From: Escherichia phage vB_Eco_SLUR29
Length of the DNA stretch: 48,466 nt
Sequence record: NC_054895.1
Reading direction: 5' to 3' (one strand)
The notes below the pieces were generated by a model. The model saw only the letters and a list, made by a program, of their open reading frames with translations. It was not told the DNA's origin and searched no databases. Below are positions 4,147 through 43,870 of the stretch, piece after piece (position 1 is the stretch's first letter; each line of letters begins with the position of its first letter). The position numbers and the translations under genes are program-made.

Positions 4147-4203
4147 TGCGCTTTCCTCTGTTTCGCTTCAATAAGGGCACTTTACCAAATGCCCTTGCGG
4201 AAG

Positions 4204-4222
4204 TTTTAACAAAAAGTGCTAT
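4204..4222 (-). promoter_or_regulatory. conserved early element, minus-strand copy, with stem-loop AGGGCA/TGCCCT
   Basis: reverse complement exact 19-mer followed by hairpin with TGGTAAAGT in loop; precedes gene 3934..4146. Confidence 0.55.
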
Positions 4223-5442: not shown

Positions 5443-5512
5443 TGTGATTTCCTCTTGATTGTTGATGTGCGCATTATAGCGGGGCCGATAACCCCGCGTT
5501 TAGCAATTCGTG

Positions 5513-6103
5513 CTATTTAATCTGTGTGTGCTTCCATTTGACAGTATTGACGATCTCGTTTACAGCCAGTTCCGGCTTGCCGTCCTGCAAGTGGAAGTCA
5601 TAGTGATGGATTCGATAGTGATAACCGCTCAGGTCAATGTAGTCTCTCGAATCGCCAGCAAACGTGAAGCCGTCGCGATGCAATCGGCAAATATGCACTT
5701 CATGCCCTGCCTTAACAAGCGGCTTGATTTCTTCGGGGAATCCGCCATCACTGATTACAACCGCCAAATCTCGGTACATCTCGTGAATCTCTTCAACCAT
5801 TCGACGCCCGAAATACTGCTCCCCAAAAACTGGCTTCATTACATCCTCACTAATCCAGATCATGAATTGTCGAGGTGACTTGCCGCCTAAGATAACTTGA
5901 GGCTTTTCTTTTTGCTCTCGGTCGTTGTACAGGTCCATAAATTCATCGTATCGGTACACGCCCAGCATAGAAAAAGCAATATCGAACATCGACTGTTTGA
6001 ATGACGCCTTGACCGCTGGGTAACGATGGCCCGTTAGGTAAGCTGCAATAGTGTCCTTCCCGCAACCTGGCGGCCCATTAAGGATGATAATGTCTCGTTT
6101 CAT
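5513..6103 (-). CDS. P-loop kinase, possibly deoxynucleoside monophosphate kinase-like
   Basis: Walker A LNGPPGCGKDT at N-terminus; size and GKDT motif resemble phage dNMP kinases; GGAG SD. Confidence 0.55.
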   Translation of the reverse strand: MKRDIIILNGPPGCGKDTIAAYLTGHRYPAVKASFKQSMFDIAFSMLGVYRYDEFMDLYNDREQKEKPQVILGGKSPRQFMIWISEDVMKPVFGEQYFGRRMVEEIHEMYRDLAVVISDGGFPEEIKPLVKAGHEVHICRLHRDGFTFAGDSRDYIDLSGYHYRIHHYDFHLQDGKPELAVNEIVNTVKWKHTQIK

Positions 6104-6761: not shown

Positions 6762-6817
6762 GATTTAATCCTCGTTTGTTGTTTATGGGCTTACTATACC
6801 GCAAGCCCGATAATCTG

Positions 6818-6836
6818 TTTTTGCAAAAAGTGCTAT
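6818..6836 (-). promoter_or_regulatory. degenerate minus-strand copy of 19-mer element with stem-loop GGGCTT/AAGCCC
   Basis: reverse complement ATAGCACTTTTTGCAAAAA; TATAGT in loop; ACAACAAACGAGGA leader; contains TAG stop of lipoprotein gene. Confidence 0.5.
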
Positions 6837-7105
6837 TTTGTCTCGACGGTCATATGTTCTGTCTTCGTGCCTTTGCCATTGCTTTTCGACACTTCCCAGC
6901 TAGTAGCGCCCTTGCAGTTGGTGAAGTAAACAGTGCGATCGTCATAGAATCGGTAAACGGTGCAACCGTCAGCGGTGAATAGCTCCCTTACGCTGTAGTC
7001 ATCGCCAGGGTTAGCCATCTGCACATTGCCAACATGCGCGCCATCTTCTTTGCATCCGGTCAGGAATGCCATTGCCGCCAAAACGCTGATTAATGCCTTT
7101 TTCAT
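6833..7105 (-). CDS. lipoprotein (lipobox LTGC)
   Basis: signal peptide plus LTGC lipobox; 90 aa; AGAGGA SD. Confidence 0.55.
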   Translation of the reverse strand: MKKALISVLAAMAFLTGCKEDGAHVGNVQMANPGDDYSVRELFTADGCTVYRFYDDRTVYFTNCKGATSWEVSKSNGKGTKTEHMTVETK

Positions 7106-7597: not shown

Positions 7598-7625
7598 ATT
7601 ATAAAAGCTATTTGGTGCGTGTCAA
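7598..7625 (-). promoter_or_regulatory. sigma70-type promoter (TTGACA-16-TATAAT) for leftward early operon
   Basis: minus-strand TTGACA at 7625..7620 and TATAAT at 7603..7598 with 16-nt spacer, about 30 nt upstream of ATG 7569. Confidence 0.6.
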
Positions 7626-7708
7626 TGTTTTTGTTGTATTCAAAACGTTACCAATATCGAAAAACTACAAAATCATGCGCAAGTTATTGATTTCGCGGCT
7701 GTTATTTT

Positions 7709-7910
7709 TCTGTTCACTCTGTTAACGCAATCCGCCGGAAAAAGTATATATACATATGCAATCCGCCGCGCGCGCAACTATCCATATATACCCACACACA
7801 ACCACACCATAACCAACAAAAAGCACTGTAACAGTGAGAACAAAAAGAAAACATTATAGATATATATAAATAAATAATCTTTATTTTCAATGTATTATAG
7901 AGGATTTTCT
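7709..7910. repeat. non-coding module R1 (paralogous to 28996..29200)
   Basis: shared ordered blocks GTTATTTTTCT, CGCCGG, TATATACATA, ACAACCACA, AAATAAATAA with the second divergent control region. Confidence 0.5.
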
Positions 7911-8059
7911 TTGTTTTTTCCGTTTTCGCTACACCGGAAAACCGCGCGGAAACACGCCGCCTGAAATCGGTAACAGGGGTGAACAAAAGACAACAACCAC
8001 TGACAGCCAGGCGGAAAAGTGAGGCAAGAGGGGAAGGTTTCACTATCTCCCCTGCAACC

Positions 8060-8157
8060 AATGATTAAACGTGATTACTTTTCTCATCAAATTTGCAAAG
8101 GCAATCATCATTTTGACGTGATTTGATTACGAATGATTACTTTTGATTATTTCGATC
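8060..8157. repeat. helically phased GATTA(C) direct repeats (iteron-like)
   Basis: five or more GATTA(A/C/T) copies at about 10-bp phasing (near 8063, 8073, 8128, 8138, 8147). Confidence 0.4.
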
Positions 8158-8180
8158 GCAATCCTGGCGATAACCGTCAA

Positions 8181-8199
8181 ATAGCACTTTTTGTTAAAA
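8181..8199 (+). promoter_or_regulatory. conserved 19-bp early element ATAGCACTTTTTGTTAAAA, copy 1 (PeSL-like)
   Basis: exact 19-mer; -10-like TACATT 22 nt after TTGTTA; CATCGAAACGAAC leader; precedes gene 8265. Confidence 0.6.
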
Positions 8200-8264
8200 C
8201 TCAGGCCACCTGATCGGGTACATTACACACATCGAAACGAACCGCACTTACTGAGGACCAAACA

Positions 8265-8567
8265 ATGATTAACATGAACCTGTTCACCGCTAAAGACCAC
8301 GAGAATATGGCAGCACTGGCTGACCTGTTCGAAACAGCAGAAATGGCTGAACTGTTCATGACTGAGCATGAATTCCAGGACGGCATCAGCAATGCCATTG
8401 AAACAAATTTTGGCGACGCTCGCGTTACTGGTGCAATGTTTGCAAATATCGCGCGTAAATTCTTCCAGGCTTACCGCGACGCTCGCCATGTAAAGGGCAC
8501 GTTTGGATCTGCGAAAGACACCGCTGAAACTATCCGCGCTTACATTGAGCGCCACGCAAAACAATAA
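8265..8567 (+). CDS. hypothetical early protein (100 aa)
   Basis: ORF with GAGGA SD; TAA stop abuts next 19-mer element. Confidence 0.6.
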   Translation: MINMNLFTAKDHENMAALADLFETAEMAELFMTEHEFQDGISNAIETNFGDARVTGAMFANIARKFFQAYRDARHVKGTFGSAKDTAETIRAYIERHAKQ

Positions 8568-8586
8568 ATAGCACTTTTTGTTAAAA
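8568..8586 (+). promoter_or_regulatory. conserved 19-bp early element, copy 2, with stem-loop GGGATAAC/GTTATCCC
   Basis: exact 19-mer; inverted repeat with TGGTATAGT (extended -10-like) in loop; CATCGAAACGAAC leader. Confidence 0.6.
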
Positions 8587-8646
8587 GCTGATCGGGATAA
8601 CCTGGTATAGTTATCCCATCGAAACGAACCGCTCAGGAGATAGTAA

Positions 8647-8919
8647 ATGAACATCAGCAAAACCACTTTCAGTTTCGCTAAGCGTCACGGTCTGGATCTG
8701 ACTGTTGAAGATTTTGGCGATGTTCTGCAACTCTGCATTTGGGAAGCAGATAACGATTGCGAGTGGCTTTGCTCTTATCGTATCAACTACGATTGCTTGA
8801 CCTGGCACGGCAATATCTATCTGCCGCAAGAAGTGAAAGAAGAGTTGCCAGCGACTATCAACAACGAGGTTTTCTTGCGCCAGGTGCTGAAATTTATCAG
8901 CAAGGAGATCAAGAAGTAA
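8647..8919 (+). CDS. hypothetical early protein (90 aa)
   Basis: ORF with AGGAGA SD. Confidence 0.6.
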   Translation: MNISKTTFSFAKRHGLDLTVEDFGDVLQLCIWEADNDCEWLCSYRINYDCLTWHGNIYLPQEVKEELPATINNEVFLRQVLKFISKEIKK

Positions 8920-9185
8920 TGGCGGTGATTACAGAAAATGATTTGGATCTGGCGGAGGCATTTTGCAGGGCCGCCATGTCTAACCTGGATGTGGCTACTA
9001 AATTTCTTCCGGTGCGCCCACTCTTTTCATGTGCGCCCGTGAATAAACCGACTCGCGTAATGATCGTGATTGAAGGTGATGGCCTGTACGCTGAAAAGAC
9101 GTTCCACATCAGCAACATTAAGGGCCGTGCTGATTTTATCAATGATGTTTGCTTATTGCAGGAGAAGAAAAAATGTTGGATGTGA
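8919..9185 (+). CDS. hypothetical protein (88 aa, MAVITENDL...)
   Basis: ATG overlaps TAA of upstream gene (TAATG). Confidence 0.5.
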   Translation: MAVITENDLDLAEAFCRAAMSNLDVATKFLPVRPLFSCAPVNKPTRVMIVIEGDGLYAEKTFHISNIKGRADFINDVCLLQEKKKCWM

Positions 9186-9382
9186 TCAAGAAAGCCAGTG
9201 AGATGGGTATGGATGTTTCAATCTGCGACGCTTCCGCGCGTCACCCGTCAGCTCCTGAAAATATGGTTGTTGTCATCGTGCATAATCACCGCTATGAGTG
9301 CCGTGCTATGTTTGAGAAGCAGGATAAAGAGTCTCAACGCTGCTTTATCAATGAAGTTTGCGATCTGTATGGGCGGATCTGA
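9173..9382 (+). CDS. hypothetical protein (69 aa, MLDVIKK...)
   Basis: AGGAGA SD 8 nt upstream of ATG 9173. Confidence 0.45.
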   Translation: MLDVIKKASEMGMDVSICDASARHPSAPENMVVVIVHNHRYECRAMFEKQDKESQRCFINEVCDLYGRI

Positions 9383-9383
9383 A

Positions 9384-9596
9384 ATGTTCAAGAAATTGTT
9401 ATGGCTGTACCGCTCCAGGCGCAATAATGGATATTGCATGGGCACGGAAAGGAATCTTGACCGCGCTTATAAATACTGCCTGTTGTTGCTAGCCAGTCTG
9501 CCGGAAAACAGGAAGGAATATATTGCGCTGCGAGAAATAACAATGCGGATATATAGTTACCGCAATAAACTATACGTCTTTAAATCTTTACGATAA
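9384..9596 (+). CDS. hypothetical protein (70 aa, MFKKLLWLY...)
   Basis: ORF; weak SD. Confidence 0.4.
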   Translation: MFKKLLWLYRSRRNNGYCMGTERNLDRAYKYCLLLLASLPENRKEYIALREITMRIYSYRNKLYVFKSLR

Positions 9597-9608
9597 GGAG
9601 TAATAACC

Positions 9609-9872
9609 ATGAAAATTAATGCACCTATTCCAGTTAAGCGCAAAGCACGTTTGCTCAATAACGGGTGTTACGCCCTGCGGCCTGCATTTAAGGATCGCAC
9701 ATTTCCGGTTATCGTTAACGTGTCTCACGTAAGCCGTAGCGGAAACCTGGTATTCGTTAAAGGTGAAGATCTGGCGGCGCTTGGATTCTATGGCGGTGCT
9801 CACGGCGAACCGCTCGGATTCTGGCTTGTAGATCCGTTAACTGGAGAGCGTGAAATCGAATTTCTGGACTAA
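9609..9872 (+). CDS. hypothetical protein (87 aa)
   Basis: strong SD TAAGGAG; TAA stop abuts next 19-mer element. Confidence 0.6.
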   Translation: MKINAPIPVKRKARLLNNGCYALRPAFKDRTFPVIVNVSHVSRSGNLVFVKGEDLAALGFYGGAHGEPLGFWLVDPLTGEREIEFLD

Positions 9873-9891
9873 ATAGCACTTTTTGTTAAAA
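9873..9891 (+). promoter_or_regulatory. conserved 19-bp early element, copy 3, with stem-loop GATGCGCT/AGCGCATC
   Basis: exact 19-mer; TGGTATAGT in loop 22 nt after TTGTTA. Confidence 0.6.
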
Positions 9892-9947
9892 ACGATGCGC
9901 TGCTGATTGGTATAGTAAGCGCATCGACAACAAACGAGGATTTAAAG

Positions 9948-10145
9948 ATGGAAAATCAGGTTGATGTTAAAGTTGTTAAGCGCGACAAGTCTCACGAAAA
10001 AGGTTTGTTTAAGAAAGGTGCTGAAATCACCATTGACCTTGATGATATGGAGGCGTACCACTCAGGGCTAACTTGGAACGTTCGCAAATGTGAAAACGGC
10101 CTGTTCAAGTTAAATGGCTTTGAAACATACATGGAGATCATTTAA
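9948..10145 (+). CDS. hypothetical protein (65 aa)
   Basis: ORF with GAGGA SD. Confidence 0.55.
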   Translation: MENQVDVKVVKRDKSHEKGLFKKGAEITIDLDDMEAYHSGLTWNVRKCENGLFKLNGFETYMEII

Positions 10146-10426
10146 TGGCATACGAAAAGAATGATTTCAATAGCGCAAGAGAAAAAATCAAGGCGGCGAG
10201 AATTAAACAGCGTGCCTTTAGATTCTGGCTTGACTATCGCGATCTAAGAAAAGATATGGATACGCTTATTAAGACTGGTAGCGCATTCTGCTCCAATAGA
10301 ACGGTTTGGCGAAATATGAATGCGCAGTACGGCCAGGGTAAAATTCGTGTATTTGGCGGCGCTGTTGAGGCTTATGTATTTGGCGCAACAAAGGCTGTAA
10401 GTTTTAACGTAGCTGGGATCGTATAA
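10145..10426 (+). CDS. hypothetical protein (93 aa)
   Basis: TAATG coupling to upstream gene. Confidence 0.55.
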   Translation: MAYEKNDFNSAREKIKAARIKQRAFRFWLDYRDLRKDMDTLIKTGSAFCSNRTVWRNMNAQYGQGKIRVFGGAVEAYVFGATKAVSFNVAGIV

Positions 10427-10638
10427 TGGCAAAGCAATTAAAACTTAAATGCGTAGAAACTTATAACTCAATTTGGAAATTCACGCGCGAAAAAGAATAT
10501 CCACTAATGGGAAATCTCAAAGAAGATCCTCATGTAATTTCAGATAATGGTCTTCACCTTTATTTAATGGAATACAACGATGGCTATATTGGCGCTGGTG
10601 TTCCGGGCCATAAATTTAAGATGAAAAATAAGAAATGA
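10426..10638 (+). CDS. hypothetical protein (70 aa)
   Basis: TAATG coupling. Confidence 0.5.
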   Translation: MAKQLKLKCVETYNSIWKFTREKEYPLMGNLKEDPHVISDNGLHLYLMEYNDGYIGAGVPGHKFKMKNKK

Positions 10639-10746
10639 GGCTATTTATTTTCAAAAATGCTTGGATGGTAGCGGTTGCAAATGACCATTACGGCGGCGAC
10701 GGAAAAAGAGCACGACGCCATTCATATTTCAATTGAGGATATTTAA

Positions 10747-10974
10747 ATGAAAGCAAAAGTTTTAAACATTATGTCAACTATTGACGCTCATCACCGCGTG
10801 GCTGTAAAACTTGATAAGTCCTGCGGAATTAGCCAAATCACTATCACCGAGGGAAAGGGCGGCTATCTTATTGGTATTCATCCAGGAGGTAAGGTGCGCA
10901 AATGCAATAAAGATCAGGTAAAAGAATTACTGGAAGAAAACGCCTTCTATATTCAAAGTTGGCGCGCTCTTTAA
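10747..10974 (+). CDS. hypothetical protein (75 aa)
   Basis: ORF with GAGGA SD. Confidence 0.55.
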   Translation: MKAKVLNIMSTIDAHHRVAVKLDKSCGISQITITEGKGGYLIGIHPGGKVRKCNKDQVKELLEENAFYIQSWRAL

Positions 10975-10981
10975 TTAATCT

Positions 10982-11003
10982 GGCGGCGTTTTGCCGCCTT
11001 TTA
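10982..11003 (+). terminator. putative weak intrinsic terminator/attenuator
   Basis: hairpin GGCGGCG-TTTT-GCCGCC followed by TTTT. Confidence 0.35.
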
Positions 11004-11016
11004 AATGAGGTGAAAA

Positions 11017-11133
11017 ATGATAGATAAAGCTATTGATTTCTTTTTTTATTCGATTATTGGCGCGGTTGGATTTTTGGTTACTGCTGCTGGCCTGGCTATT
11101 ATCTTGGCTGTTATTAAGGTAGTTATGCGATGA
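11017..11133 (+). CDS. small hydrophobic peptide (38 aa)
   Basis: short ORF below track threshold, GAGGTG SD, single predicted TM helix; overlaps next ATG. Confidence 0.3.
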   Translation: MIDKAIDFFFYSIIGAVGFLVTAAGLAIILAVIKVVMR

Positions 11134-11354
11134 GTCAGGACGGTTTTTTTGAGCGCCTTCAAATGGCAGAAGATGCCGGGCTAAATAAAGAGTCGGCGCT
11201 TGAAGTGGCATATAAAATTAAGACTCTTGATGAGGCTTTAGGTGATATGGATATGGATCTTGAATCAAGCGCAATATTTGCAGATCCCACTATGATTGTT
11301 AATGATTGTGGATGCGATTTCGATCCTGGTTGTGCGCGCTGTTTTCCGTTTTGA
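11130..11354 (+). CDS. hypothetical protein with C-terminal Cys cluster (CGCDFDPGCARC)
   Basis: 74-aa ORF. Confidence 0.5.
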   Translation: MSQDGFFERLQMAEDAGLNKESALEVAYKIKTLDEALGDMDMDLESSAIFADPTMIVNDCGCDFDPGCARCFPF

Positions 11355-11358
11355 GGTA

Positions 11359-12075
11359 ATGACGATGTATAAAGGTTTAATATTCTCCCTATTTGATGGA
11401 TCTGGTAAAGCCGTTAAAGATTGGGCTGATAATGGCTATAAGTGCATTTGCTTTAATGCTGACGGCGGCGATCACGGTGATTACCAGTCAGTGCGCATAC
11501 AGCATGAGAATATCGAATACGTTAACGTCTGGATTGATGAAAGATTTTACCACCGCGCGCGCTGGGAGGAATGGGGCATTCCTGACTTTATTATGGCATT
11601 TCCGCCGTGCACTGACCTTGCAAATAGCGGATCTCGCCATTGGGCCAAAAAACGCCTTGAGAATCCATCTTTCCAGGATGAGGCCGCCGACACTTGCAGG
11701 ATCGCGGCTGATATAGCTGATTATTTCGGTGTTCCTTACATGATCGAAAATCCGGTTGGCAAGTTGTCAACGTTATGGCGAAAGCCTGATTATACGTTCC
11801 ATCCGTGCGATTACGCTGGCTATCTGCCGGAAGATGATAAACATCCCGACTTCCCTGATATTATTCCGGCGCGGGATCGCTATTTTAAGAAAACATGCCT
11901 CTGGACTGGCAACGGCTTTGTTATTCCTCCACGCGCTTTAATCCTGCCGAAAGAGAAAGACAAAGATAATCCAGGCTGGGCCAAAACTGGCGGCAAGTCA
12001 TCGCGCACAAAGATGATCCGCTCCCTCACTCCGCGCGGCTTTGCTCGCGCCGTCTTTGAGTCAAACTCAAAATAG
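11359..12075 (+). CDS. DNA (cytosine-5)-methyltransferase-like
   Basis: motif I FSLFDGSG, PPC catalytic-Cys motif (FPPCTDL), ENP/ENV-like motif (MIENPVGK); TAG stop lies inside next 19-mer element. Confidence 0.65.
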   Translation: MTMYKGLIFSLFDGSGKAVKDWADNGYKCICFNADGGDHGDYQSVRIQHENIEYVNVWIDERFYHRARWEEWGIPDFIMAFPPCTDLANSGSRHWAKKRLENPSFQDEAADTCRIAADIADYFGVPYMIENPVGKLSTLWRKPDYTFHPCDYAGYLPEDDKHPDFPDIIPARDRYFKKTCLWTGNGFVIPPRALILPKEKDKDNPGWAKTGGKSSRTKMIRSLTPRGFARAVFESNSK

Positions 12076-12090
12076 CACTTTTTGTTAAAA
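12072..12090 (+). promoter_or_regulatory. conserved 19-bp early element, copy 4, with stem-loop GCCAGGT/ACCTGGC
   Basis: exact 19-mer containing stop codon of upstream gene; TGGCATAAT 22 nt after TTGTTA. Confidence 0.6.
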
Positions 12091-12144
12091 GCCAGGTGTA
12101 AAAACCTGGCATAATCACATCGAACAAACAAAGGAGATCTGATC

Positions 12145-12531
12145 ATGAATGTTATCTGTAATGAAACCAACGTATTGATGAAAGGCCGATTTAAAACGGT
12201 TTATCAGAAGATTGCAGGAAGTAATGATGTGATCGAGGTGGAAGAATTCCAGGTTAAGACGCTTGTTAAGGGTAGCCGCTGGCTTCCAGCAAACCGAGAT
12301 GATTACCGCGTCATTAACACAAAAACCGTTCTTTGCAAGTTTGTAGATCATAACATGCCGTGCAAAAAGCACTTTAAGCAGGGAAAGCGATACCAGATCG
12401 AGAAAGGGCGACCGCTTGGAAGCGTTGCGGGTTATGTTTTTGATGAGTGCGGCGACCGCTGGAACCTGTACCGTGAAGAGGTCGGATTCTCTGCTGGCGG
12501 CTGTTATCTTTTTGAGGGTAAATATCTGTGA
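12145..12531 (+). CDS. hypothetical protein (128 aa)
   Basis: strong SD AAAGGAG. Confidence 0.55.
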   Translation: MNVICNETNVLMKGRFKTVYQKIAGSNDVIEVEEFQVKTLVKGSRWLPANRDDYRVINTKTVLCKFVDHNMPCKKHFKQGKRYQIEKGRPLGSVAGYVFDECGDRWNLYREEVGFSAGGCYLFEGKYL

Positions 12532-12749
12532 TAAACAGTGAAAACCGTTACAAAGTAACGAATTCTACCACAAAGACTTTCAAGCCTGGCGATATAGTCA
12601 GGCCCATCAAAAAAACGGCGGTAGGTTGGCTGATTGGTTTTTCATATCATAAGGCTCTTTACTTTACGTTTAAGGATGGGATCATGGGGGAATGCTATAG
12701 CGACCGCCATCCTGATCGACTTCTGGTTGCAATAGAGCGGATCAAATAG
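12528..12749 (+). CDS. hypothetical protein (73 aa, probable GTG start)
   Basis: GTGA overlap with upstream stop; TAG stop inside next 19-mer. Confidence 0.45.
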   Translation: MINSENRYKVTNSTTKTFKPGDIVRPIKKTAVGWLIGFSYHKALYFTFKDGIMGECYSDRHPDRLLVAIERIK

Positions 12750-12764
12750 CACTTTTTGACAAAA
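12746..12764 (+). promoter_or_regulatory. conserved early element, copy 5 (TTGACA variant), with stem-loop GGGCCGT/ACGGCCC
   Basis: ATAGCACTTTTTGACAAAA; TAAAAT in loop; precedes P-loop NTPase gene. Confidence 0.6.
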
Positions 12765-12817
12765 CGGGGTAGTATTGGGCCGTTAAAATTTACGGCCCAC
12801 AAAGGAGAAGCTAACGA

Positions 12818-14398
12818 ATGTTTTCATTAGAAACGAACAAATTAACTCCACAGCAAATAATCGCTATGGCTGAAAGCCAGAACCTTTCACCAGTTCGCGT
12901 ATCAATTCAGGCTAACGGCTATCGCCAGTCGTCCAGCTTTTGGGGCGACGTAAAGGATGTGAATAGCGGTCACGATCGCTACCCCGTTATTTCTCTTGGT
13001 AATGATATTGATGTTGTCGGCAAGTTATCACGCAGCATTGCGCGATCCGTTCAATTCCCTGAATCATCGGCTTACATGCACTTTATCGGCTGCATTTCTG
13101 CCGCTATGCTTGGACGCTTTACGGTTGACTATCACGGAACCGATCAGCCGACTGCGCTTTACGTCGTTACAAGCCAGCCGCCGTCAACTGGTAAATCTGC
13201 GATCAACAGCATGGCTATTGCTCCGATGATTGCGGAAGTTGAGAAGATCAACGAGCAACGCCGCAAGGAAAGAAAGAAAATACAGGCAAAGCTGGCAGGT
13301 CTTGCAAAGGAGATGAAAAGCGAAAGATCCGGCGCTGATATGGAATCTCTATACCAGGAAAAAGAGGATCTGGAGGAAAAGCTGGAAAAAATGTGTGATA
13401 TAACTTTTCCTGTTTCAGATACAACTCCAGAAGGCTTGGCGAAAATCAACAACAAGCAAGGTAACTTTGCCGTAATTTCTGATGAAGCAACAAGTATTAA
13501 CAGTCTGTTAGGTTTGACCTATGCAAATAGCGAAAGGAAGACTAACAGTGAGTTAGTGCTTAAGGCGTGGGATAATGGTCACGTATCAATTGCCCGTGCT
13601 AATGCTGACAATAATATGAGTTTTCGCGCGCTTGGATGTATGAGCGTTATAGCCCAGGATGAAACGATAAGCGGAATCATGGACGCTGGATCGCGAGGCA
13701 TCGGTGTTAGTGAGCGTTTTTTGTTGGTCCGCGAGGAATCATTCTTAGGCCGTCGCTCATTCATTGATGAAAATGGTGATTCTACCTATGAGGCGGTGGA
13801 TTCTGAATTGAAAGCCCAATATTATCAATTGGTGCATAACATCATGAGCGAATCAAATATATCGCTGAAAATAAGCCGTTCAGCTATGCGAGTGCTCAAC
13901 ATTGCTCGCCAGGATATGGAACCGCATCTTGCAGACGGCGGAAAGTATTCTCATACAATGTTACGCGGTGCGCTTGGTAAAATGGATAAACAGGTGATCA
14001 GGCTTGCTTCCGTCCTGCATGTTATCCGTAACTGGTTTAATCCTGCCGGATACCCGCAGAAGTCGAAAGAGATCGACGTGGAAACAATGCAAGAGGCGTT
14101 GATCATGTTTCAGGAATTGAGCAAAACATACATTAGCGCCGCCAATGCTTCTGGTTATGCTGGTGATGATGCTGAAATGGGTAAATTGATTGAATTGATC
14201 ACGAGGCACGGCAAGGCTAACAAAGGGATCCTGAATATTCGCGCCCTGTACGAATCAGCGAGAAAGGTAAAACCTTTCGTTGGTCAGGCTGGCGTAATGA
14301 AAAGGATAGAAGGGCACTTACTGCCAATGCTGGAAGAAAGAAATTATGTTTGTGTGATTAATGGTGTTATTTTTGTCAATCCAATACTGCTGGGATGA
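12818..14398 (+). CDS. P-loop NTPase of unknown function (526 aa)
   Basis: Walker A-like PPSTGKSA and Walker B-like FAVISDEA; strong SD; function not assignable by eye. Confidence 0.7.
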   Translation: MFSLETNKLTPQQIIAMAESQNLSPVRVSIQANGYRQSSSFWGDVKDVNSGHDRYPVISLGNDIDVVGKLSRSIARSVQFPESSAYMHFIGCISAAMLGRFTVDYHGTDQPTALYVVTSQPPSTGKSAINSMAIAPMIAEVEKINEQRRKERKKIQAKLAGLAKEMKSERSGADMESLYQEKEDLEEKLEKMCDITFPVSDTTPEGLAKINNKQGNFAVISDEATSINSLLGLTYANSERKTNSELVLKAWDNGHVSIARANADNNMSFRALGCMSVIAQDETISGIMDAGSRGIGVSERFLLVREESFLGRRSFIDENGDSTYEAVDSELKAQYYQLVHNIMSESNISLKISRSAMRVLNIARQDMEPHLADGGKYSHTMLRGALGKMDKQVIRLASVLHVIRNWFNPAGYPQKSKEIDVETMQEALIMFQELSKTYISAANASGYAGDDAEMGKLIELITRHGKANKGILNIRALYESARKVKPFVGQAGVMKRIEGHLLPMLEERNYVCVINGVIFVNPILLG

Positions 14399-14790
14399 TT
14401 ATGTTTTTGCTTGATCTGTATAAATGGTGTGAGTCATACGATTGGTTTAACAGGCAGCACATAGCCAAATTTATCTATCAGCATAGAGAATGTGAGCGGC
14501 TCGCACGGGCCGCCGGACTTACGCCGCGAATGTTCGCCAGCCTTGCATCTAAGGAATTTTGCGCAAGAATGATGACGGCTGGTTATATAGATGGAGTCTG
14601 CGGAAAATACTGGTCCAAAGGATCGTCAAAGCGGCCTTTCGGATTCGAATTGTATAGCCTGGATGGTATGCGCAACGACTGGATCAGGGATATGGCTAGA
14701 ATAGGGGAGATGGGCGATGATGAATTGTTCCAGGCAAAAGCTAATAGACAAGATCTTGAAGCACTGCGCCGTAAATTCAATCTCACATGA
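14395..14790 (+). CDS. hypothetical protein (131 aa)
   Basis: ATGA coupling to upstream NTPase gene. Confidence 0.5.
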   Translation: MIMFLLDLYKWCESYDWFNRQHIAKFIYQHRECERLARAAGLTPRMFASLASKEFCARMMTAGYIDGVCGKYWSKGSSKRPFGFELYSLDGMRNDWIRDMARIGEMGDDELFQAKANRQDLEALRRKFNLT

Positions 14791-14911
14791 GGATTTTATT
14801 CATGCTTTACTTACGCTACTTTATTCAGATATGCGCGCTTTTAGCACCACTGAACATGTTTTATGCAATGATGATGGTGTATTACTGGTTACGGTAAAGC
14901 GTATGGAATAG
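14717..14911 (+). CDS. possible overlapping small ORF (64 aa)
   Basis: GGGGAGA SD 6 nt before ATG; TAG stop is the TAG of the next 19-mer element, as for other cassette-terminal genes. Confidence 0.3.
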   Translation: MMNCSRQKLIDKILKHCAVNSISHEDFIHALLTLLYSDMRAFSTTEHVLCNDDGVLLVTVKRME

Positions 14912-14926
14912 CATTTTTTGTTAAAA
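14908..14926 (+). promoter_or_regulatory. conserved early element, copy 6 (ATAGCATTTTTTGTTAAAA), stem-loop CCCGGC/GTCGGG
   Basis: near-exact 19-mer; TATATT after hairpin; CATCGAAACGAAAC leader; inverted duplicate of copy at 18151..18169. Confidence 0.6.
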
Positions 14927-14988
14927 CGCCCGGCCTAGTGTCGGGTATATTTGTTTCATCGAAACGAAACAACCAAAAAGGAAAAATT

Positions 14989-15213
14989 ATGTCCAGCAAG
15001 TTTTTAGTAGTTCGCGTATACAATCATGCAAATGGATCTTCTTCTGAAATCCCGACAGTTTACGATAAGGATTCAGGCTGGAGTGAGCAATCGGCGGTTG
15101 AAAATGAGCGCAAGATTGCAGGACTATACGGCGACACTTGCAGCATTGAAGTAAGGAAGTACGACGAATCGAACAAGCCAACAAACGAAAGCCATATGTG
15201 GCCCGACGCATAA
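14989..15213 (+). CDS. hypothetical protein (74 aa, MSSKFLVV...)
   Basis: ATG at 14989 after A-rich leader. Confidence 0.5.
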   Translation: MSSKFLVVRVYNHANGSSSEIPTVYDKDSGWSEQSAVENERKIAGLYGDTCSIEVRKYDESNKPTNESHMWPDA

Positions 15214-18093: not shown

Positions 18094-18150
18094 TTTTATT
18101 TCCTCATGTTTGTTTCGTTGAAATAATTATGCCCGACACTAGGCCGGGCG

Positions 18151-18169
18151 TTTTAACAAAAAGTGCTAT
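18151..18169 (-). promoter_or_regulatory. conserved early element, minus-strand copy; inverted duplicate of copy 6
   Basis: reverse complement is ATAGCACTTTTTGTTAAAA followed by identical hairpin CGCCCGGCCTAGTGTCGGG and CATAAT; contains TAG stop of gene 18166..18405. Confidence 0.6.
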
Positions 18170-18409: not shown

Positions 18410-19135
18410 TTAACTCCGTTTGCGTGCTCGGCGTTCGGTAACAGAAGGACAAATATCGCTGATCTTAACGTATCGCGTTTTCTGCTCTTCGCCTTCTTTA
18501 AGTTTACGCATGACAAAAATCACGCTCCCCTTATTGTTGCCCTGTACAGGCTCGCCAGTCAATCCAGACACAAAGGCGATTCTTCCGGTGCGGGAATATT
18601 CCACTCCCCCCTCTTCGTAAACCTCGCCAGTGATCCAGATGATTTCAGCCGCGTTTTTCTGCGCCTCATAAAACCATGCTGTAGAGTTGTCGGATGGCAA
18701 CAAAACATCAATTTGGTTGTTGTGCTCCATTTGCTCAATTGCTTTCTTGATAAATGGAGTTGGGTTGCTGTACGGCGGGTTAAGCCATACGTGCTTGTTG
18801 CTACCCCACCAACGCTTTAAGCAGTTTGTTTCCTTGCTATAGAACTTCTCGCAAACTGCGTTTTCCTGGCTTGCTGCCGCGTCGAGATCGTATTCGCCAA
18901 ATTCTGATTCCATCCACTCCACGATCTCTTGAGGTGTGCTCCACATATCGCGCACAACGTCCGGCGTAGTGCTTCCAGCGTATCGGTTGCCGCTTACCTT
19001 ATAATATTGATTTGGCTTTACTGCCTGGTAATGGCCTCCAGTTGCAAGGGCATTCCCTATAAATGTTTCTCTCTCCAACTGCTCAAAGCTAACGAATGCG
19101 TCATGGGTGTCTTTATCTAAAATATCTTTAGCCAT
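18410..19135 (-). CDS. dam: DNA N6-adenine methyltransferase (Dam-like)
   Basis: NPPY catalytic motif (WLNPPYS); 241 aa; GGAGA SD. Confidence 0.75.
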   Translation of the reverse strand: MAKDILDKDTHDAFVSFEQLERETFIGNALATGGHYQAVKPNQYYKVSGNRYAGSTTPDVVRDMWSTPQEIVEWMESEFGEYDLDAAASQENAVCEKFYSKETNCLKRWWGSNKHVWLNPPYSNPTPFIKKAIEQMEHNNQIDVLLPSDNSTAWFYEAQKNAAEIIWITGEVYEEGGVEYSRTGRIAFVSGLTGEPVQGNNKGSVIFVMRKLKEGEEQKTRYVKISDICPSVTERRARKRS

Positions 19136-19199
19136 TTCATTTCTCCGCTATTAAAAGCTATCTCGTGTTATTGAATTATGGCGCAATCCATCGCGCCAG

Positions 19200-19218
19200 T
19201 TTTAACAAAAAGTGCTAT
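19200..19218 (-). promoter_or_regulatory. conserved early element, minus-strand copy, with stem-loop GGCGC/GCGCC
   Basis: reverse complement exact 19-mer followed by hairpin and CATAAT; contains TAG stop of 19215..19634; precedes Dam. Confidence 0.6.
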
Positions 19219-21631: not shown

Positions 21632-21639
21632 CTTAAACC

Positions 21640-21668
21640 TTTAAAAAATGCCATTTGGAGTATATAAT
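21640..21668 (+). promoter_or_regulatory. putative sigma70 promoter (TTTAAA-17-TATAAT) for rightward HTH/primase/fiber block
   Basis: hexamers at 21640..21645 and 21663..21668; overlaps face-to-face with minus-strand -10 of the helicase promoter. Confidence 0.4.
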
Positions 21669-21688
21669 AGACTCATTACAATAAACTG

Positions 21689-21707
21689 TTTTAACAAAAA
21701 ATGCTAT
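21689..21707 (-). promoter_or_regulatory. conserved early element, minus-strand copy driving helicase operon
   Basis: reverse complement ATAGCATTTTTTGTTAAAA; TATTAT 22 nt after TTGTTA; about 58 nt upstream of helicase ATG. Confidence 0.55.
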
Positions 21708-21718
21708 GAGGTGACTAG

Positions 21719-22195
21719 ATGAAAGATGCACGAATTGCGGTGTCTACGGGTGAGATCGACAAGCGCACTATTAACGGTAACAACGGAACGCGACGAGGTA
21801 AAGACAAAAAGCCACGAAAACACCGAACCGGATTTCTTATCCTGCGAGATGAGGTAAAAGCAAGCCTGAAATCTCGCTTGGATATTCTGATCGAGTATTA
21901 TGGCGGTGTTCCTGCTATGGCTCGACGTCTACGCGTATCTCAGCAAGTCGTTAACCAATGGCGAAAGCGTGGTATGATTTCAGCCGCTGGAGCACAAAAG
22001 GTGCATAACGACTACAAATATAATGGATGCAAAGGATACCGCGCATCATTTTGTCGTCCAGATCTGCGGTTTGATTCTAACGGTAAGCCTCTTACTACCC
22101 GTTGCGACAAATACGAGATGTTGCGCGTAGTCAAAAATTCAGACTACGAACCAGGCGGACGATTCTACAAAGGTGATAACAGCACAAATAGCTAA
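21719..22195 (+). CDS. HTH DNA-binding protein (Cro/YdaS-like)
   Basis: HTH-like GGVPAMARRLRVSQQVVNQWRKRG; GAGG SD. Confidence 0.6.
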   Translation: MKDARIAVSTGEIDKRTINGNNGTRRGKDKKPRKHRTGFLILRDEVKASLKSRLDILIEYYGGVPAMARRLRVSQQVVNQWRKRGMISAAGAQKVHNDYKYNGCKGYRASFCRPDLRFDSNGKPLTTRCDKYEMLRVVKNSDYEPGGRFYKGDNSTNS

Positions 22196-23250: not shown

Positions 23251-23269
23251 CATTAGCAAAAAGTGCTAT
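23251..23269 (-). promoter_or_regulatory. degenerate copy of 19-mer element (16/19), reverse orientation relative to adjacent + gene
   Basis: CATTAGCAAAAAGTGCTAT directly upstream of SD of tail fiber gene. Confidence 0.4.
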
Positions 23270-29283: not shown

Positions 29284-29302
29284 GTAGCACTTTTTGCTAA
29301 AC
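29284..29302 (+). promoter_or_regulatory. degenerate copy of 19-mer element (GTAGCACTTTTTGCTAAAC) with -10-like TATAGT
   Basis: TATAGT 21 nt after TTGCTA; ACAACAACAAAGGAG leader; precedes lipoprotein gene. Confidence 0.45.
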
Positions 29303-29356
29303 GCGCGCCTTAAAATCGTGTATAGTTGAACCAACAACAACAAAGGAGATGAAAAG

Positions 29357-34141: not shown

Positions 34142-34188
34142 GACTTTTAACCTTTTGTGCTGTTTATTGGTTTGCTCATTATAAATGC

Positions 34189-40076: not shown

Positions 40077-40095
40077 ATAGCACTTTTTGTTAAAA
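40077..40095 (+). promoter_or_regulatory. exact 19-mer copy in plus orientation inside leftward structural operon
   Basis: ATAGCACTTTTTGTTAAAA; TAGATT 22 nt after TTGTTA; about 45 nt before terminator at 40141; its reverse complement abuts SD of G gene. Confidence 0.45.
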
Positions 40096-43820: not shown

Positions 43821-43826
43821 TAGATG

Positions 43827-43845
43827 ATAGCACTTTTTGTTAAAC
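43827..43845 (+). promoter_or_regulatory. 19-mer copy (ATAGCACTTTTTGTTAAAC) in plus orientation inside structural operon
   Basis: 18/19 match; TATTAG 22 nt after TTGTTA. Confidence 0.4.
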
Positions 43846-43870
43846 GTGCAATGTTTTTTTATGCTATTAG

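What the first reader, a model, noticed from the sequence alone, without database searches (positions are those of the whole stretch)
8166..14947. Recurrent 19-mer plus stem-loop 'cassette boundary' elements punctuate the rightward early region (PeSL-like)
Six near-identical copies of ATAGCACTTTTTGTTAAAA lie at 8181, 8568, 9873, 12072, 12746 and 14908. Each is followed by a copy-specific inverted repeat; a -10-like hexamer (TATAGT, TACATT, CATAAT, TAAAAT, TATATT), often with an upstream TG, sits at a fixed 22 nt after TTGTTA, at the end of the repeat or just past it. Then come a conserved A/C-rich leader (CATCGAAACGAAC), an SD and the ATG of the next gene. The 19-mer is more conserved than the coding sequence around it, and the 22-nt spacing is too long for TTGTTA to be a normal sigma70 -35. 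This architecture resembles the promoter-early stem-loop (PeSL) modules described as recombination-prone cassette boundaries in T4-type phages. I cannot tell from sequence whether it has been described for T1-like phages.
Basis: partly seen in the sequence, partly recalled or inferred. Interest (0 to 1): 0.8.

Follow-up and report, generated by a model that had tools for sequence, protein, structure and literature searches.

The report
Marbox-type phage promoter cassettes with hairpins
The repeated 19-mer is a perfect copy of the E. coli "marbox", placed exactly as in host promoters switched on by the stress regulators MarA, SoxS and Rob, so this T1-like phage probably borrows those host activators for its early genes; the same 75-bp modules are also the seams at which related phages gain and lose genes.

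Summary
The window is a complete T1-like (Drexlerviridae, Warwickvirus-like) genome with 16 copies of the box on both strands, not six.

- **Identity of the box.** Its core, GCACTTTTTGTTAAA, matches the marbox consensus GCAHWWWWTGYYAAA at 15 of 15 positions. There are 12 perfect matches against about 0.1 expected.
- **Geometry.** The box points forward and overlaps the -35 zone. Its G lies 35 nt upstream of a -10 hexamer, the same distance as in E. coli micF, the model class II MarA/SoxS/Rob promoter. This explains the "22-nt spacing": TTG is part of the marbox, not a -35.
- **No phage activator.** The window, T1 and TLS encode no AraC-family protein, so the activator would be the host's. This is inferred, not shown.
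- **Hairpins.** The copy-specific hairpins are kept by compensatory changes and fold better as sense RNA. Some are terminator-like.
- **Cassette seams.** Three indels between close relatives are flanked by elements, and one relative carries a chimeric element. The PeSL-like shuffling idea is supported.
- **Prior description.** The repeat was described in TLS and T1 in 2024 with function left open. I found no paper linking it to marboxes.

The parts
8181..8264 (+). Promoter module 1. Box 8181-8199; weak inverted repeat 8201-8213; -10 TACATT 8219-8224; predicted +1 A at 8231; leader ATCGAAACGAACC; ATG 8265.
8265..8567 (+). 100-aa ORF forming a cassette between modules 1 and 2. It is absent from phages tonnikala, JLBYU16 and orkinos, which carry one chimeric module instead.
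8568..8646 (+). Promoter module 2. Box 8568-8586; hairpin 8590-8620 (arms GGGATAAC/GTTATCCC flank the -10); TGgTATAGT with -10 at 8606-8611; +1 A at 8618; ATG 8647.
   Evidence: -13.3 kcal/mol, z -3.3
9873..9947 (+). Promoter module 3. Box 9873-9891; hairpin 9893-9926 around the -10; TGgTATAGT with -10 at 9911-9916; +1 A at 9923; ATG 9948. Tonnikala has two extra genes between two copies of this module.
   Evidence: (z -4.9)
12072..12144 (+). Promoter module 4. Box 12072-12090 (the TAG stop of the methylase gene lies inside the box); spacer hairpin 12091-12110; -10 CATAAT 12110-12115; +1 about 12119-12122; ATG 12145.
   Evidence: z -5.7
12746..12817 (+). Promoter module 5. Box 12746-12764 (TTGACA variant, 1 mismatch to the marbox consensus); hairpin 12776-12799 around the -10 TAAAAT 12784-12789; ATG 12818 (526-aa helicase-like gene).
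   Evidence: z -4.2
14908..14989 (+). Promoter module 6. Box 14908-14926; terminator-like spacer hairpin 14928-14946 followed by TATATTTGTTT; -10 TATATT 14946-14951; +1 A at 14958; ATG 14990.
4147..4222 (-). Promoter module. Box 4222-4204; covarying hairpin AAGGGCA/TGCCCTT 4196-4173 around TGgTAAAGT (-10 at 4184-4179); +1 at 4172; ATG 4146.
5443..5516 (-). Promoter module of the 'GAA' subtype. Box ATAGCACGAATTGCTAAAC 5516-5498; spacer hairpin 5497-5479; -10 TATAAT 5478-5473; ATG 5442.
6762..6836 (-). Promoter module. Box 6836-6818 (TTGCAA variant); hairpin 6808-6787; -10 TATAGT 6798-6793; ATG 6761. JLBYU16 has 2.2 kb extra between two boxes at this point.
18094..18169 (-). Promoter module. Box 18169-18151; terminator-like hairpin 18149-18131; -10 CATAAT 18131-18126; ATG 18093.
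19136..19218 (-). Promoter module. Box 19218-19200; spacer hairpin 19198-19179; -10 CATAAT 19180-19175; ATG 19135 (241-aa methylase-like gene).
21632..21707 (-). Promoter module for the 665-aa helicase gene. Box 21707-21689; -10 TATTAT 21669-21664; no hairpin. It lies back to back with the promoter of the divergent Cro/YdaS-like regulator gene (21719-22195).
29284..29356 (+). Promoter module. Box 29284-29302 (GTAGCAC...GCTAAAC); -10 TATAGT 29321-29326, one nt closer than usual; ATG 29357 (small lipoprotein-like ORF).
43824..43851 (-). Canonical-looking promoter of the major capsid gene: TTGCAC, 16 nt, TGcTATCAT. Its spacer and the first half of its -10 are the reverse complement of box 43827-43845(+), so the box sits backward inside a core promoter.
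   Evidence: same layout in T1, TLS and Vc1
40077..40095 (+). Orphan box pointing away from the adjacent tail-chaperone gene, whose SD abuts it on the other strand. TAGATT lies at the usual distance, followed at once by a bidirectional terminator.
   Evidence: conserved in T1 at 18832-18850
23251..23269 (-). Orphan box (GCTAAT variant) abutting the SD of the tail-fibre gene on the other strand. No -10 at the usual distance.
34146..34160 (-). Box-like GCACAAAAGGTTAAA with a built-in SD, 4 nt before the ATG of the tail-tip (J-like) gene. There is no room for a -10. It may be a docking site or relic; orkinos has an extra gene with its own box promoter inserted just upstream.

Best explanation
Each element is a compact transcription-unit boundary of about 75 bp with these parts in order:

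1. **Box.** The 19-mer is a consensus marbox, the asymmetric binding site of the monomeric AraC-family activators MarA, SoxS and Rob (RamA in Klebsiella). It lies in forward orientation at about -50 to -32, overlapping the place where a -35 would be.
2. **Core promoter.** A sigma70 -10 hexamer follows, usually with G at -14, and transcription starts at a conserved C(-1)A(+1). The activator, most likely the constitutively abundant host Rob with MarA and SoxS as alternatives, would bind the box, contact the alpha-CTD and sigma70 region 4 of RNA polymerase, and replace the missing -35 contact, as solved for micF.
3. **Hairpin.** A class II promoter puts no sequence demand on the -31 to -13 spacer, so the phage uses it for a copy-specific hairpin. 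This hairpin exists only in RNA read through from upstream. Depending on position it ends or attenuates the upstream unit (hairpin followed by the T-rich -10 and discriminator) or caps its 3' end.
4. **Leader.** An unstructured A/C-rich leader and an SD start the next gene.
5. **Seam.** The box and leader are near-identical at many sites, so they are homology patches. Recombination between them inserts, deletes and swaps the small genes in between.

Shown: sequence identity to the marbox, geometry, orientation, conservation pattern, hairpin covariation and cassette junctions. Inferred: that transcription starts there, that host MarA/SoxS/Rob is the factor, and what the hairpin does.
For: **Match to the marbox**
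- Core GCACTTTTTGTTAAA matches GCAHWWWWTGYYAAA (PMC6900184) at 15 of 15 positions.
- It matches 13 of 14 specified positions of AYNGCACNNWNNRYYAAAYN (PMC2064960).
- Perfect matches: window 12, T1 11, TLS 12, each against about 0.1 expected; Sushi has 8.

**Geometry**
- The G of GCAC lies 35 nt before the -10 hexamer in 12 of the window's 13 gene-directed modules (34 nt at 29284) and in 64 sites aligned from six genomes.
- In micF, GCAC is at 87-90 and TAGAAT at 122-127, also 35 nt.
- Rob contacts -47G and -45A and occludes sigma70 region 4 (PMC9178005). The micF soxbox is centred at -41.5 (PMC9638938). Class II means forward orientation overlapping the -35.

**Variation among the 64 sites** falls on the degenerate marbox positions: only A or T at the W position, T or C in 62 of 64 at the first Y position, and free variation at the N positions.

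**Core promoter signals:** G at -14 in 56 of 64, C at -1 in 44 of 64, A at +1 in 52 of 64.

**Canonical sigma70 promoters are not enriched:** 28 found against 36.6 expected. The TLS authors found only three.

**No phage activator:** no AraC homolog in the window, T1 or TLS.

**Spread across unrelated phages of Enterobacterales**
- Dibbivirus carries the same module and also encodes a 136-aa AraC-family protein.
- T4-type Lw1, RB16, RB43 and KP27 carry it too.

**Hairpins**
- 35 of 48 have z below -2.
- Sense RNA folds 2.6 kcal/mol better than antisense, p = 9e-7.
- In one hairpin family, 7 of 11 pairs show compensatory changes, and 0 of 500 shuffles reach the observed values.

**Cassette junctions:**
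Against: - No binding or transcription data exist for these sites, and no transcription start has been mapped.
- A Keio screen of the T1-like phage LL5 did not recover rob, marA or soxS (PMC7229145). The three are redundant, and many sites have an extended -10 that may give basal activity, but strict dependence on one factor is excluded.
- MarA and SoxS are scarce without inducers and Rob is largely inactive (from my own knowledge), yet these phages grow fast in plain broth.
- The box is more conserved than the marbox requires (A-51/-50, A-48, T-40/-39, A-32) and contains a partial palindrome TAGCA-N5-TGCTA. Something else may therefore also constrain it, or another protein may read it.
- The Dibbivirus AraC-like protein shows that a phage-encoded reader is possible, but its recognition-helix residues differ from MarA.
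- Three boxes in the window do not point at genes.
Confidence: 0.6

Rival explanations
1. The box is read by a phage-encoded DNA-binding protein, for example the conserved Cro/YdaS-like regulator encoded at 21719-22195 next to one box, acting as activator or repressor. On this view the resemblance to the marbox is coincidental or mimicry.
For: - The regulator gene is conserved and sits back to back with a box in the window, T1, TLS, Sushi and Vc1.
- The box has a partial palindrome and is more conserved than a marbox needs to be.
- Dibbivirus carries its own AraC-family gene ending in a box.
- The Keio screen found no rob, marA or soxS.
Against: - A 15/15 consensus match together with base-exact micF geometry is very unlikely by chance.
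- The box is strictly directional, unlike a dimer operator.
- The first rightward promoter (8181) already carries the box, so it must fire before any phage protein exists.
- The same module works in T4-type and Dibbi-type phages. Those two groups were not searched for a Cro-like homologue of their own.
- The regulator has a single helix-turn-helix (HTH) motif.
Confidence: 0.2
2. The box is an UP element: an A/T-rich upstream sequence bound directly by the RNA polymerase alpha-CTD that boosts an extended -10 promoter without any activator. This is one of the suggestions in the TLS paper.
For: - The T-run and A-run lie at about -43 to -32.
- Extended -10 (TG) is present at 28 of 64 sites and G at -14 at 56 of 64.
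- The idea is suggested in PMC11447400.
Against: - The invariant positions are G-47, C-46, C-44 and G-38, none of which belongs to the all-A/T UP consensus (from my own knowledge).
- The box reaches to -32, inside the -35 zone.
- These invariant bases are exactly the marbox recognition elements.
Confidence: 0.07
3. The repeats act mainly at RNA level or as elongation blocks: stoperator-like sites, processing sites or translational signals in read-through mRNA. On this view the -10-like hexamers are incidental.
For: - The hairpins are selected as sense RNA.
- Backward boxes abut the SD sequences of three late genes, and box-like sequences lie directly before the J and terS start codons.
- The stoperator idea is raised in PMC11447400.
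Against: - The fixed 35-nt distance to a hexamer with invariant A-11 and T-7, the conserved C-1/A+1, and the subsequent SD and ATG at about 13 sites per genome are promoter anatomy.
- The phages are virulent, and no repressor-type regulator is known for them.
- The box itself is not part of the covarying structure.
Confidence: 0.06

Closest known systems
Class II MarA/SoxS/Rob/RamA-dependent promoters of Enterobacteriaceae (archetype micF)
   Same: - The 20-bp asymmetric box has GCAC and YAAA elements.
- Orientation is forward, overlapping the -35 zone.
- The distance from box to -10 is identical (35 nt from the G of GCAC).
- There is no usable -35, and a sigma70 -10 is present.
- micF ACAGCACTGAATGTCAAAAC and the phage ATAGCACTTTTTGTTAAAAC share 15 of 20 bases.
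   Different: - These lie in a virulent phage genome at 13-20 sites per 48 kb.
- They sit much closer to consensus than host sites do.
- They carry a hairpin in the spacer and a shared leader.
- Activator dependence is untested.
PeSLs (promoter-early stem-loops) of T4-type phages (PMC2839356, PMC4122927)
   Same: - A composite promoter plus stem-loop at variable position, followed by SD and ATG.
- Located between small non-essential ORFs.
- Indels between close relatives are bounded by the elements.
- Chimeric elements occur at junctions.
   Different: - PeSL promoters are sigma70-consensus -35/-10 with an AT-rich upstream tract. Here the -35 is replaced by a marbox.
- The host genome is a T1-like siphovirus, although the same module also occurs in T4-type Lw1, RB16, RB43 and KP27.
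- Mini-circles and terminator activity were not tested.
21-nt direct repeats of phage TLS, also noted in T1, Rtp and Rogue1 (PMC11447400)
   Same: [quoted passage not shown] The window's six copies lie 72-84 nt before theirs.
   Different: That paper left the function open (stoperator, enhancer site or UP element). It did not link the repeat to the marbox, to the fixed -10, to the hairpins or to indel junctions.
MotA-dependent middle promoters of phage T4
   Same: An activator box replaces the -35 in front of a sigma70 -10. The right half of the box (TTTGCTAAA) resembles the MotA box TTTGCTTTA. The KP27 record labels such sites 'putative middle promoter'.
   Different: The MotA box lies 11-13 bp from the -10 and needs phage MotA and AsiA (from my own knowledge). 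Here the gap is 20 nt and the conserved left half, ATAGCAC, has no counterpart.

Membership tests
Class II marbox (MarA/SoxS/Rob) promoter | Asymmetric box matching AYNGCACNNWNNRYYAAAYN / GCAHWWWWTGYYAAA | tested here: met
   15/15 and 13/14 specified positions. 12 perfect matches in the window against about 0.1 expected.
Class II marbox (MarA/SoxS/Rob) promoter | Forward orientation with respect to the transcribed gene | tested here: met
   13 of 16 boxes point at an SD and ATG 72-84 nt away. The same holds in T1, TLS, Sushi and Vc1.
Class II marbox (MarA/SoxS/Rob) promoter | Box overlaps the -35 zone, centred near -41, at a fixed distance from the -10 | tested here: met
   The G of GCAC is 35 nt before the hexamer, identical to micF. 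Literature positions are -47G/-45A and -41.5. Transcription starts are predicted, not mapped.
Class II marbox (MarA/SoxS/Rob) promoter | Poor or absent -35 hexamer at 16-18 bp together with a sigma70 -10 | tested here: met
   The sequence at the -35 position is AAAANN. None of the modules appears in the -35/-10 scan. A-11 and T-7 were required when the 64 sites were chosen, so their invariance there is by construction.
Class II marbox (MarA/SoxS/Rob) promoter | Bound by MarA, SoxS or Rob, with transcription stimulated by them | not testable with these tools
   Needs EMSA, in vitro transcription or mutant hosts. The single-gene Keio screen of a relative was negative.
PeSL | Strong sigma70-consensus -35 and -10 with an AT-rich upstream tract | tested here: not met
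   No -35 at 16-18 bp. The upstream conserved block has invariant G and C bases.
PeSL | Stable stem-loop at variable position relative to the promoter | tested here: met
   Hairpins lie in the spacer or around the -10. 35 of 48 have z below -2, and covariation is present.
PeSL | Indels and replacements between close relatives bounded by the elements, with chimeric elements at junctions | tested here: met
   Three element-flanked indels with overlapping alignments, and the orkinos chimeric module. About seven other indels or replacements are not at elements.
PeSL | The stem-loop terminates upstream transcription; mini-circles form | not testable with these tools
   Some hairpins are terminator-like, and the T1 record annotates such hairpins as terminators. 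No functional data.
PeSL | Resident of hyperplastic regions of T4-type genomes | tested here: not met
   The window is Drexlerviridae. The same module does occur in T4-type Lw1, RB43 and KP27.
TLS-type direct repeat | Consensus aaATAGCACnnnTTGnTAAAA, co-directional with genes, about 76 nt before start codons | tested here: met
UP element | A/T-only consensus between -59 and -38 | tested here: not met
   G-47, C-46 and G-38 were fixed by the site filter; C-44 is present in 59 of 64 sites. The box extends to -32. The UP consensus is from my own knowledge.
T4 middle (MotA) promoter | MotA box 11-13 bp upstream of the -10, with phage MotA and AsiA | tested here: not met
   The gap from the end of the box to the -10 is 20 nt. 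The presence of MotA and AsiA homologs was not tested.

The most novel reading that the evidence does not exclude
T1-like phages, some T4-type phages and Dibbi-type phages of Enterobacterales run their early gene programme on the host's MarA/SoxS/Rob/RamA stress and antibiotic-resistance activators through consensus class II marboxes.

The same box, placed backward inside the major-capsid promoter, would make that activator a repressor there. Titration of the activator by replicating genomes (about 20 boxes each) could then time the early-to-late switch without any phage regulator.

The module is also a mobile seam that moves genes within and between phage families.
Probability: 0.35. Interest if true: 0.85.

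Novelty: new variant of a known kind. Interest (0 to 1): 0.72.

Why it matters
**It answers an open question with a testable proposal.**
- The function of this repeat has been open since the T1 genome paper and was raised again in 2024. Reading it as a class II marbox turns that question into simple experiments.

**It would tie phage growth to host stress and drug resistance.**
- If correct, a large and therapeutically used phage family (T1-like coliphages and Klebsiella Webervirus) ties its transcription to regulators that respond to bile salts, salicylate, oxidants and antibiotics.
- Those same regulators are overexpressed in many multidrug-resistant isolates, so phage efficacy and drug resistance could be linked.

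**It shows two design principles.**
- An activator-dependent promoter frees its spacer to carry a terminator.
- Regulatory-cassette gene shuffling of the PeSL type extends beyond T4-type phages.

Tried and rejected
- **A -35 at normal spacing.** The sequence 17 nt upstream of each -10 is AAAANN. Rejected.
- **IHF, FNR-like or UP readings of the 19-mer.** Poor fits when compared by hand, using consensus sequences from my own knowledge. Rejected.
- **Phage-encoded MarA-like protein.** HMM and phmmer searches of all six-frame ORFs of the window, T1 and TLS gave only noise, with best E-values of 0.03-0.35.
- **The 'transcriptional regulator' at 21719-22195.** It is Cro/YdaS-like, not AraC-like.
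- **Host-range control with non-enterobacterial relatives.**
  - Pseudomonas phage Motto is 82-88% identical in nucleotide sequence to Salmonella and 'Vibrio' phages, so it is uninformative.
  - 'Xanthomonas' phage DIBBI has Pantoea phages whose AraC-like protein is about 95% identical to its own, so it is not a clean non-enteric control.
- **Rfam and tRNA scans of the window.** Nothing found.
- **Literature.** No paper holds the 19-mer, and none links marboxes to phage genomes.
- **Antisense-promoter reading of the three orphan boxes.** Their -10 hexamers are poor or lead straight into terminators. Left unexplained, except for the box upstream of the capsid gene.

Full report
**1. Observation**

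The 19-mer ATAGCACTTTTTGTTAAAA occurs at all six stated sites. With up to 3 mismatches it occurs 15 times in the window on both strands, against 0.05 expected from shuffles. The window is a whole T1-like genome, about 98% identical over the tested 7 kb to Escherichia phage tunus and its relatives (Drexlerviridae, Tempevirinae, Warwickvirus).

In all six copies a -10-like hexamer starts exactly 22 nt after TTGTTA. An SD and ATG follow, 72-84 nt after the start of the box.

**2. What the 19-mer is**

The repeat has been published. The 2024 re-annotation of phage TLS reports a 21-nt direct repeat, aaATAGCACnnnTTGnTAAAA, at 21 sites. It is co-directional with genes, lies about 76 nt before start codons, and is also seen in T1, Rtp and Rogue1. 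The authors left its function open, suggesting stoperators, enhancer sites or UP elements (PMC11447400).

Comparing the sequence with known E. coli sites shows what it is:
- The core GCACTTTTTGTTAAA matches the ChIP-seq-derived marbox consensus GCAHWWWWTGYYAAA at 15 of 15 positions (PMC6900184).
- It matches the classical soxbox/marbox AYNGCACNNWNNRYYAAAYN at 13 of 14 specified positions (PMC2064960).
- Scanning with the 15-mer consensus gives 12 perfect matches in the window (about 0.1 expected), 11 in T1, 12 in TLS, 8 in Klebsiella phage Sushi and 4 in Vc1.
- The scan also found a sixteenth site at 5498-5516(-), of the 'GAA' subtype.

**3. Geometry**

In the window's six rightward modules, and in 64 promoter-type sites aligned from six genomes, the G of GCAC lies 35 nt upstream of the first base of the -10 hexamer. 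A few further sites sit at 34 or 36 nt.

I fetched the E. coli micF promoter, the model class II MarA/SoxS/Rob promoter. GCAC lies at 87-90, CAAA at 98-101, TAGAAT at 122-127 and the micF start at 135, so the distance is also 35 nt. The micF box ACAGCACTGAATGTCAAAAC shares 15 of 20 bases with the phage box.

The literature agrees with this placement:
- Rob contacts -47G and -45A, the B site overlaps the -35, and Rob occludes sigma70 region 4 (PMC9178005).
- The micF soxbox is centred at -41.5 (PMC9638938).
- Class II means a forward-orientation box overlapping the -35.

The TTG is the TG of the marbox, not a -35.

**4. Conservation pattern**

In the 64-site alignment the variable positions are those that are degenerate in the marbox:
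- -43 and -42 vary freely (N positions).
- -41 is only A or T (the W position).
- -37 is T or C in 62 of 64 sites (the first Y position).

G-47, C-46, A-45, G-38 and A-35/-34 appear invariant, but my site filter fixed them. C-44 (59/64), T-40 (63/64), T-39 (64/64) and A-33 (61/64) were not fixed by the filter and are nearly or fully invariant.

Beyond the box, G at -14 occurs in 56 of 64 sites, C at -1 in 44 and A at +1 in 52. An A/C-rich leader follows. This is promoter anatomy.

Canonical -35/-10 promoters are not enriched in the window (28 found, 36.6 expected). The TLS authors found only three.

**5. Who reads the box**

No AraC/XylS-family protein is encoded in any frame of the window, T1 or TLS. 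The conserved 'transcriptional regulator' next to one box is Cro/YdaS-like with a single helix-turn-helix (HTH) motif. The first rightward promoter (8181) already carries the box, so it must work before phage proteins exist.

The same module also occurs outside Drexlerviridae:
- **Dibbivirus.** DIBBI and Pantoea phages carry sites such as aATAGCACTTTTTGCCAAA, then a hairpin, TAATAT, and a leader starting ATCGGCAGCGAAC.
- **T4-type phages.** Lw1, RB16, RB43, KP27, Miller and others carry it between small ORFs near denV and dexA.

A factor common to Enterobacterales hosts is the simplest reader. Rob is the obvious candidate because it is constitutively abundant (my own knowledge), with MarA, SoxS and RamA as alternatives.

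DIBBI itself encodes a 136-aa stand-alone AraC-family protein, with Pfam HTH_18 at E = 3e-14 and alignment to MarA at E = 7e-12. Its gene ends in a box. This links such boxes to MarA-sized AraC proteins. However, its recognition-helix residues differ from MarA, so it is suggestive only.

Against strict dependence on one host factor, a Keio screen of the TLS-like phage LL5 did not recover rob, marA or soxS. Redundancy among the three, and extended -10 elements at 28 of 64 sites, could explain that result.

**6. The hairpins**
- Of 48 promoter-type sites in the window, T1 and TLS, 35 fold with z below -2 against shuffles. The mean z is -3.0.
- Over 64 sites the sense strand folds 2.6 kcal/mol better than the antisense strand as RNA (Wilcoxon p = 9e-7), whereas shuffled sequences give +0.6. 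G-U pairs are therefore being used, which points to selection on sense RNA rather than on a DNA cruciform.
- In one family of ten sites from five genomes, 7 of 11 pairs show changes on both sides and 95.5% of cells are paired. None of 500 shuffles reaches the observed values, and slid registers fall to 32-50% paired.
- The hairpins lie upstream of the predicted start, so they exist only in transcripts reading through from upstream.
- In 23 of 64 sites the stem-loop fills the spacer and is followed by the T-rich -10 and discriminator. These look like intrinsic terminators (window 14928-14946 and 18149-18131), and the T1 record annotates such hairpins as terminators.
- Most of the others (31 of 64) enclose the -10 and end at -1 without a U-tract. 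For these I can only propose attenuation or 3'-end capping of the upstream message.

**7. Cassette boundaries**

I ran BLAST of the window against three close relatives.

- (a) ORF 8265-8567, flanked by modules at 8181 and 8568, is missing from tonnikala, JLBYU16 and orkinos. Their alignments overlap by 67 nt on a single module. The orkinos module is chimeric: its left part comes from the 8181 module, its right part from the 8568 module, and the crossover lies within the shared leader ATCGAAACGAACCGC.
- (b) Tonnikala has two extra genes between two modules where the window has only the 9873 module. The alignments overlap at 9866-9943.
- (c) JLBYU16 has 2.2 kb between two boxes where the window has only the 6818 box. 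The overlap, 6817-6837, is the 19-mer itself.
- Two further breakpoints (14913 and 43866) fall inside modules. The 14913 breakpoint rests on a weak 135-nt alignment at 71% identity.
- An extra orkinos gene in the tail region brings its own box promoter.
- About seven other indels or replacements are not at modules, including an HNH endonuclease insertion and tail-fibre swaps.

The PeSL-like shuffling role is therefore supported. By the published definition, however, these are not PeSLs, which have consensus sigma70 -35/-10 promoters (PMC2839356).

**8. Boxes that do not fit the promoter pattern**

Three boxes in the window point away from the neighbouring gene.

The box upstream of the major capsid gene is informative. 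Read on the gene's strand, the sequence is TTGCAC, 16 nt, TGcTATCAT. The reverse complement of the box forms the spacer and the first half of an extended -10. The same layout holds in T1 (TTGACG-16-TGcTATTAT), TLS and Vc1.

A marbox overlapping a core promoter is the position screened for repression in PMC12052159. An activator that turns on early promoters could therefore hold the capsid promoter off until it is titrated by replicating genomes. This is speculation.

The boxes abutting the SD sequences of the tail-chaperone and tail-fibre genes, and the box-like sequences directly before the J and terS start codons, remain unexplained. They may be docking sites or relics of cassette exchange.

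**9. Verdict**
- The elements are real and are very probably promoters.
- Reading them as class II marbox promoters fits sequence, geometry, orientation, variation pattern, lack of a phage-encoded activator in the three genomes searched, and spread across unrelated phages of Enterobacterales. It awaits any biochemical or genetic test.
- The repeat itself is known.
- I found no prior report of the marbox identity, the terminator-in-spacer design or the cassette junctions in the searchable literature.

Noticed in passing
window 43824-43851 (-), box 43827-43845 (+); T1 L001 15040-15140; TLS L003 14990-15072: A backward marbox forms the spacer and part of the extended -10 of a canonical-looking promoter for the major capsid gene (TTGCAC/TTGACG/TTGAAC, 16 nt, TGcTATNNT). 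This is conserved across subfamilies. A hairpin plus T-run follows, starting at the predicted transcription start. It could be a repression site that times late expression.
   Followed up: partly
L054 (Escherichia phage Lw1) 324(-) and 940(-); L130 (Klebsiella phage KP27) 2505(+) and 3121(+); L048 11519(-): The same module (ATAGCACTTTTTGCTAAA, hairpin, TATAGT/TATATT, ATCGAAAC leader, SD) sits between small ORFs of T4-type phages: Pseudotevenvirus RB16, RB43 and Lw1, Slopekvirus KP27, and Citrobacter Miller. The KP27 record calls these regions 'putative middle promoter'. In one copy a full terminator separates the box from the -10, moving the -10 from 35 to 46 nt.
   Followed up: partly
L005 (phage DIBBI) 36382-36792, with boxes at 34945, 36792, 43936 and 45708: A myovirus outside Drexlerviridae has the same box-hairpin-TATTAT promoters and encodes a 136-aa stand-alone AraC-family (HTH_18) protein whose stop codon lies in a box. 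Pantoea phages encode a version of this AraC-like protein that is about 95% identical, which puts the 'Xanthomonas' host label in doubt.
   Followed up: partly
window 40077-40095 (+) and 23251-23269 (-): Backward boxes directly abut the SD of the tail-assembly chaperone gene and the tail-fibre gene. The positions are conserved in T1. No convincing promoter runs in either direction, and the function is unexplained.
   Followed up: partly
window 34146-34160 (-); T1 L001 25024 and 8365; TLS L003 24911: Box-like sequences lie immediately before start codons of the tail-tip J gene (GCACAAAAGGTTAAA, with the SD inside the box) and, in T1, of terS. There is no room for a -10. Orkinos has an extra gene with its own box promoter inserted just upstream of the J box.
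   Followed up: partly
window 7600-8180: A 580-nt non-coding region lies between the divergent early operons. It contains TATATATA tracts, TGATTA(C) repeats at 8063-8152, and a perfect sigma70 promoter (TTGACA, 16 nt, TATAAT) on the minus strand at 7625-7598. It may be the origin or packaging region.
   Followed up: no
all boxes, e.g. window 8565-8586 and 12072-12090: Upstream genes end in or against the box (TAA before ATAG, TAG at box positions 2-4, TAA at 15-17). The box therefore closes reading frames in all three phases, which is convenient for a shuffling seam.
   Followed up: no
window 14751-14779 versus L007 8328-8867: Phage tonnikala carries an HNH homing-endonuclease gene inserted here that the window lacks. 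This indel is unrelated to the modules.
   Followed up: no
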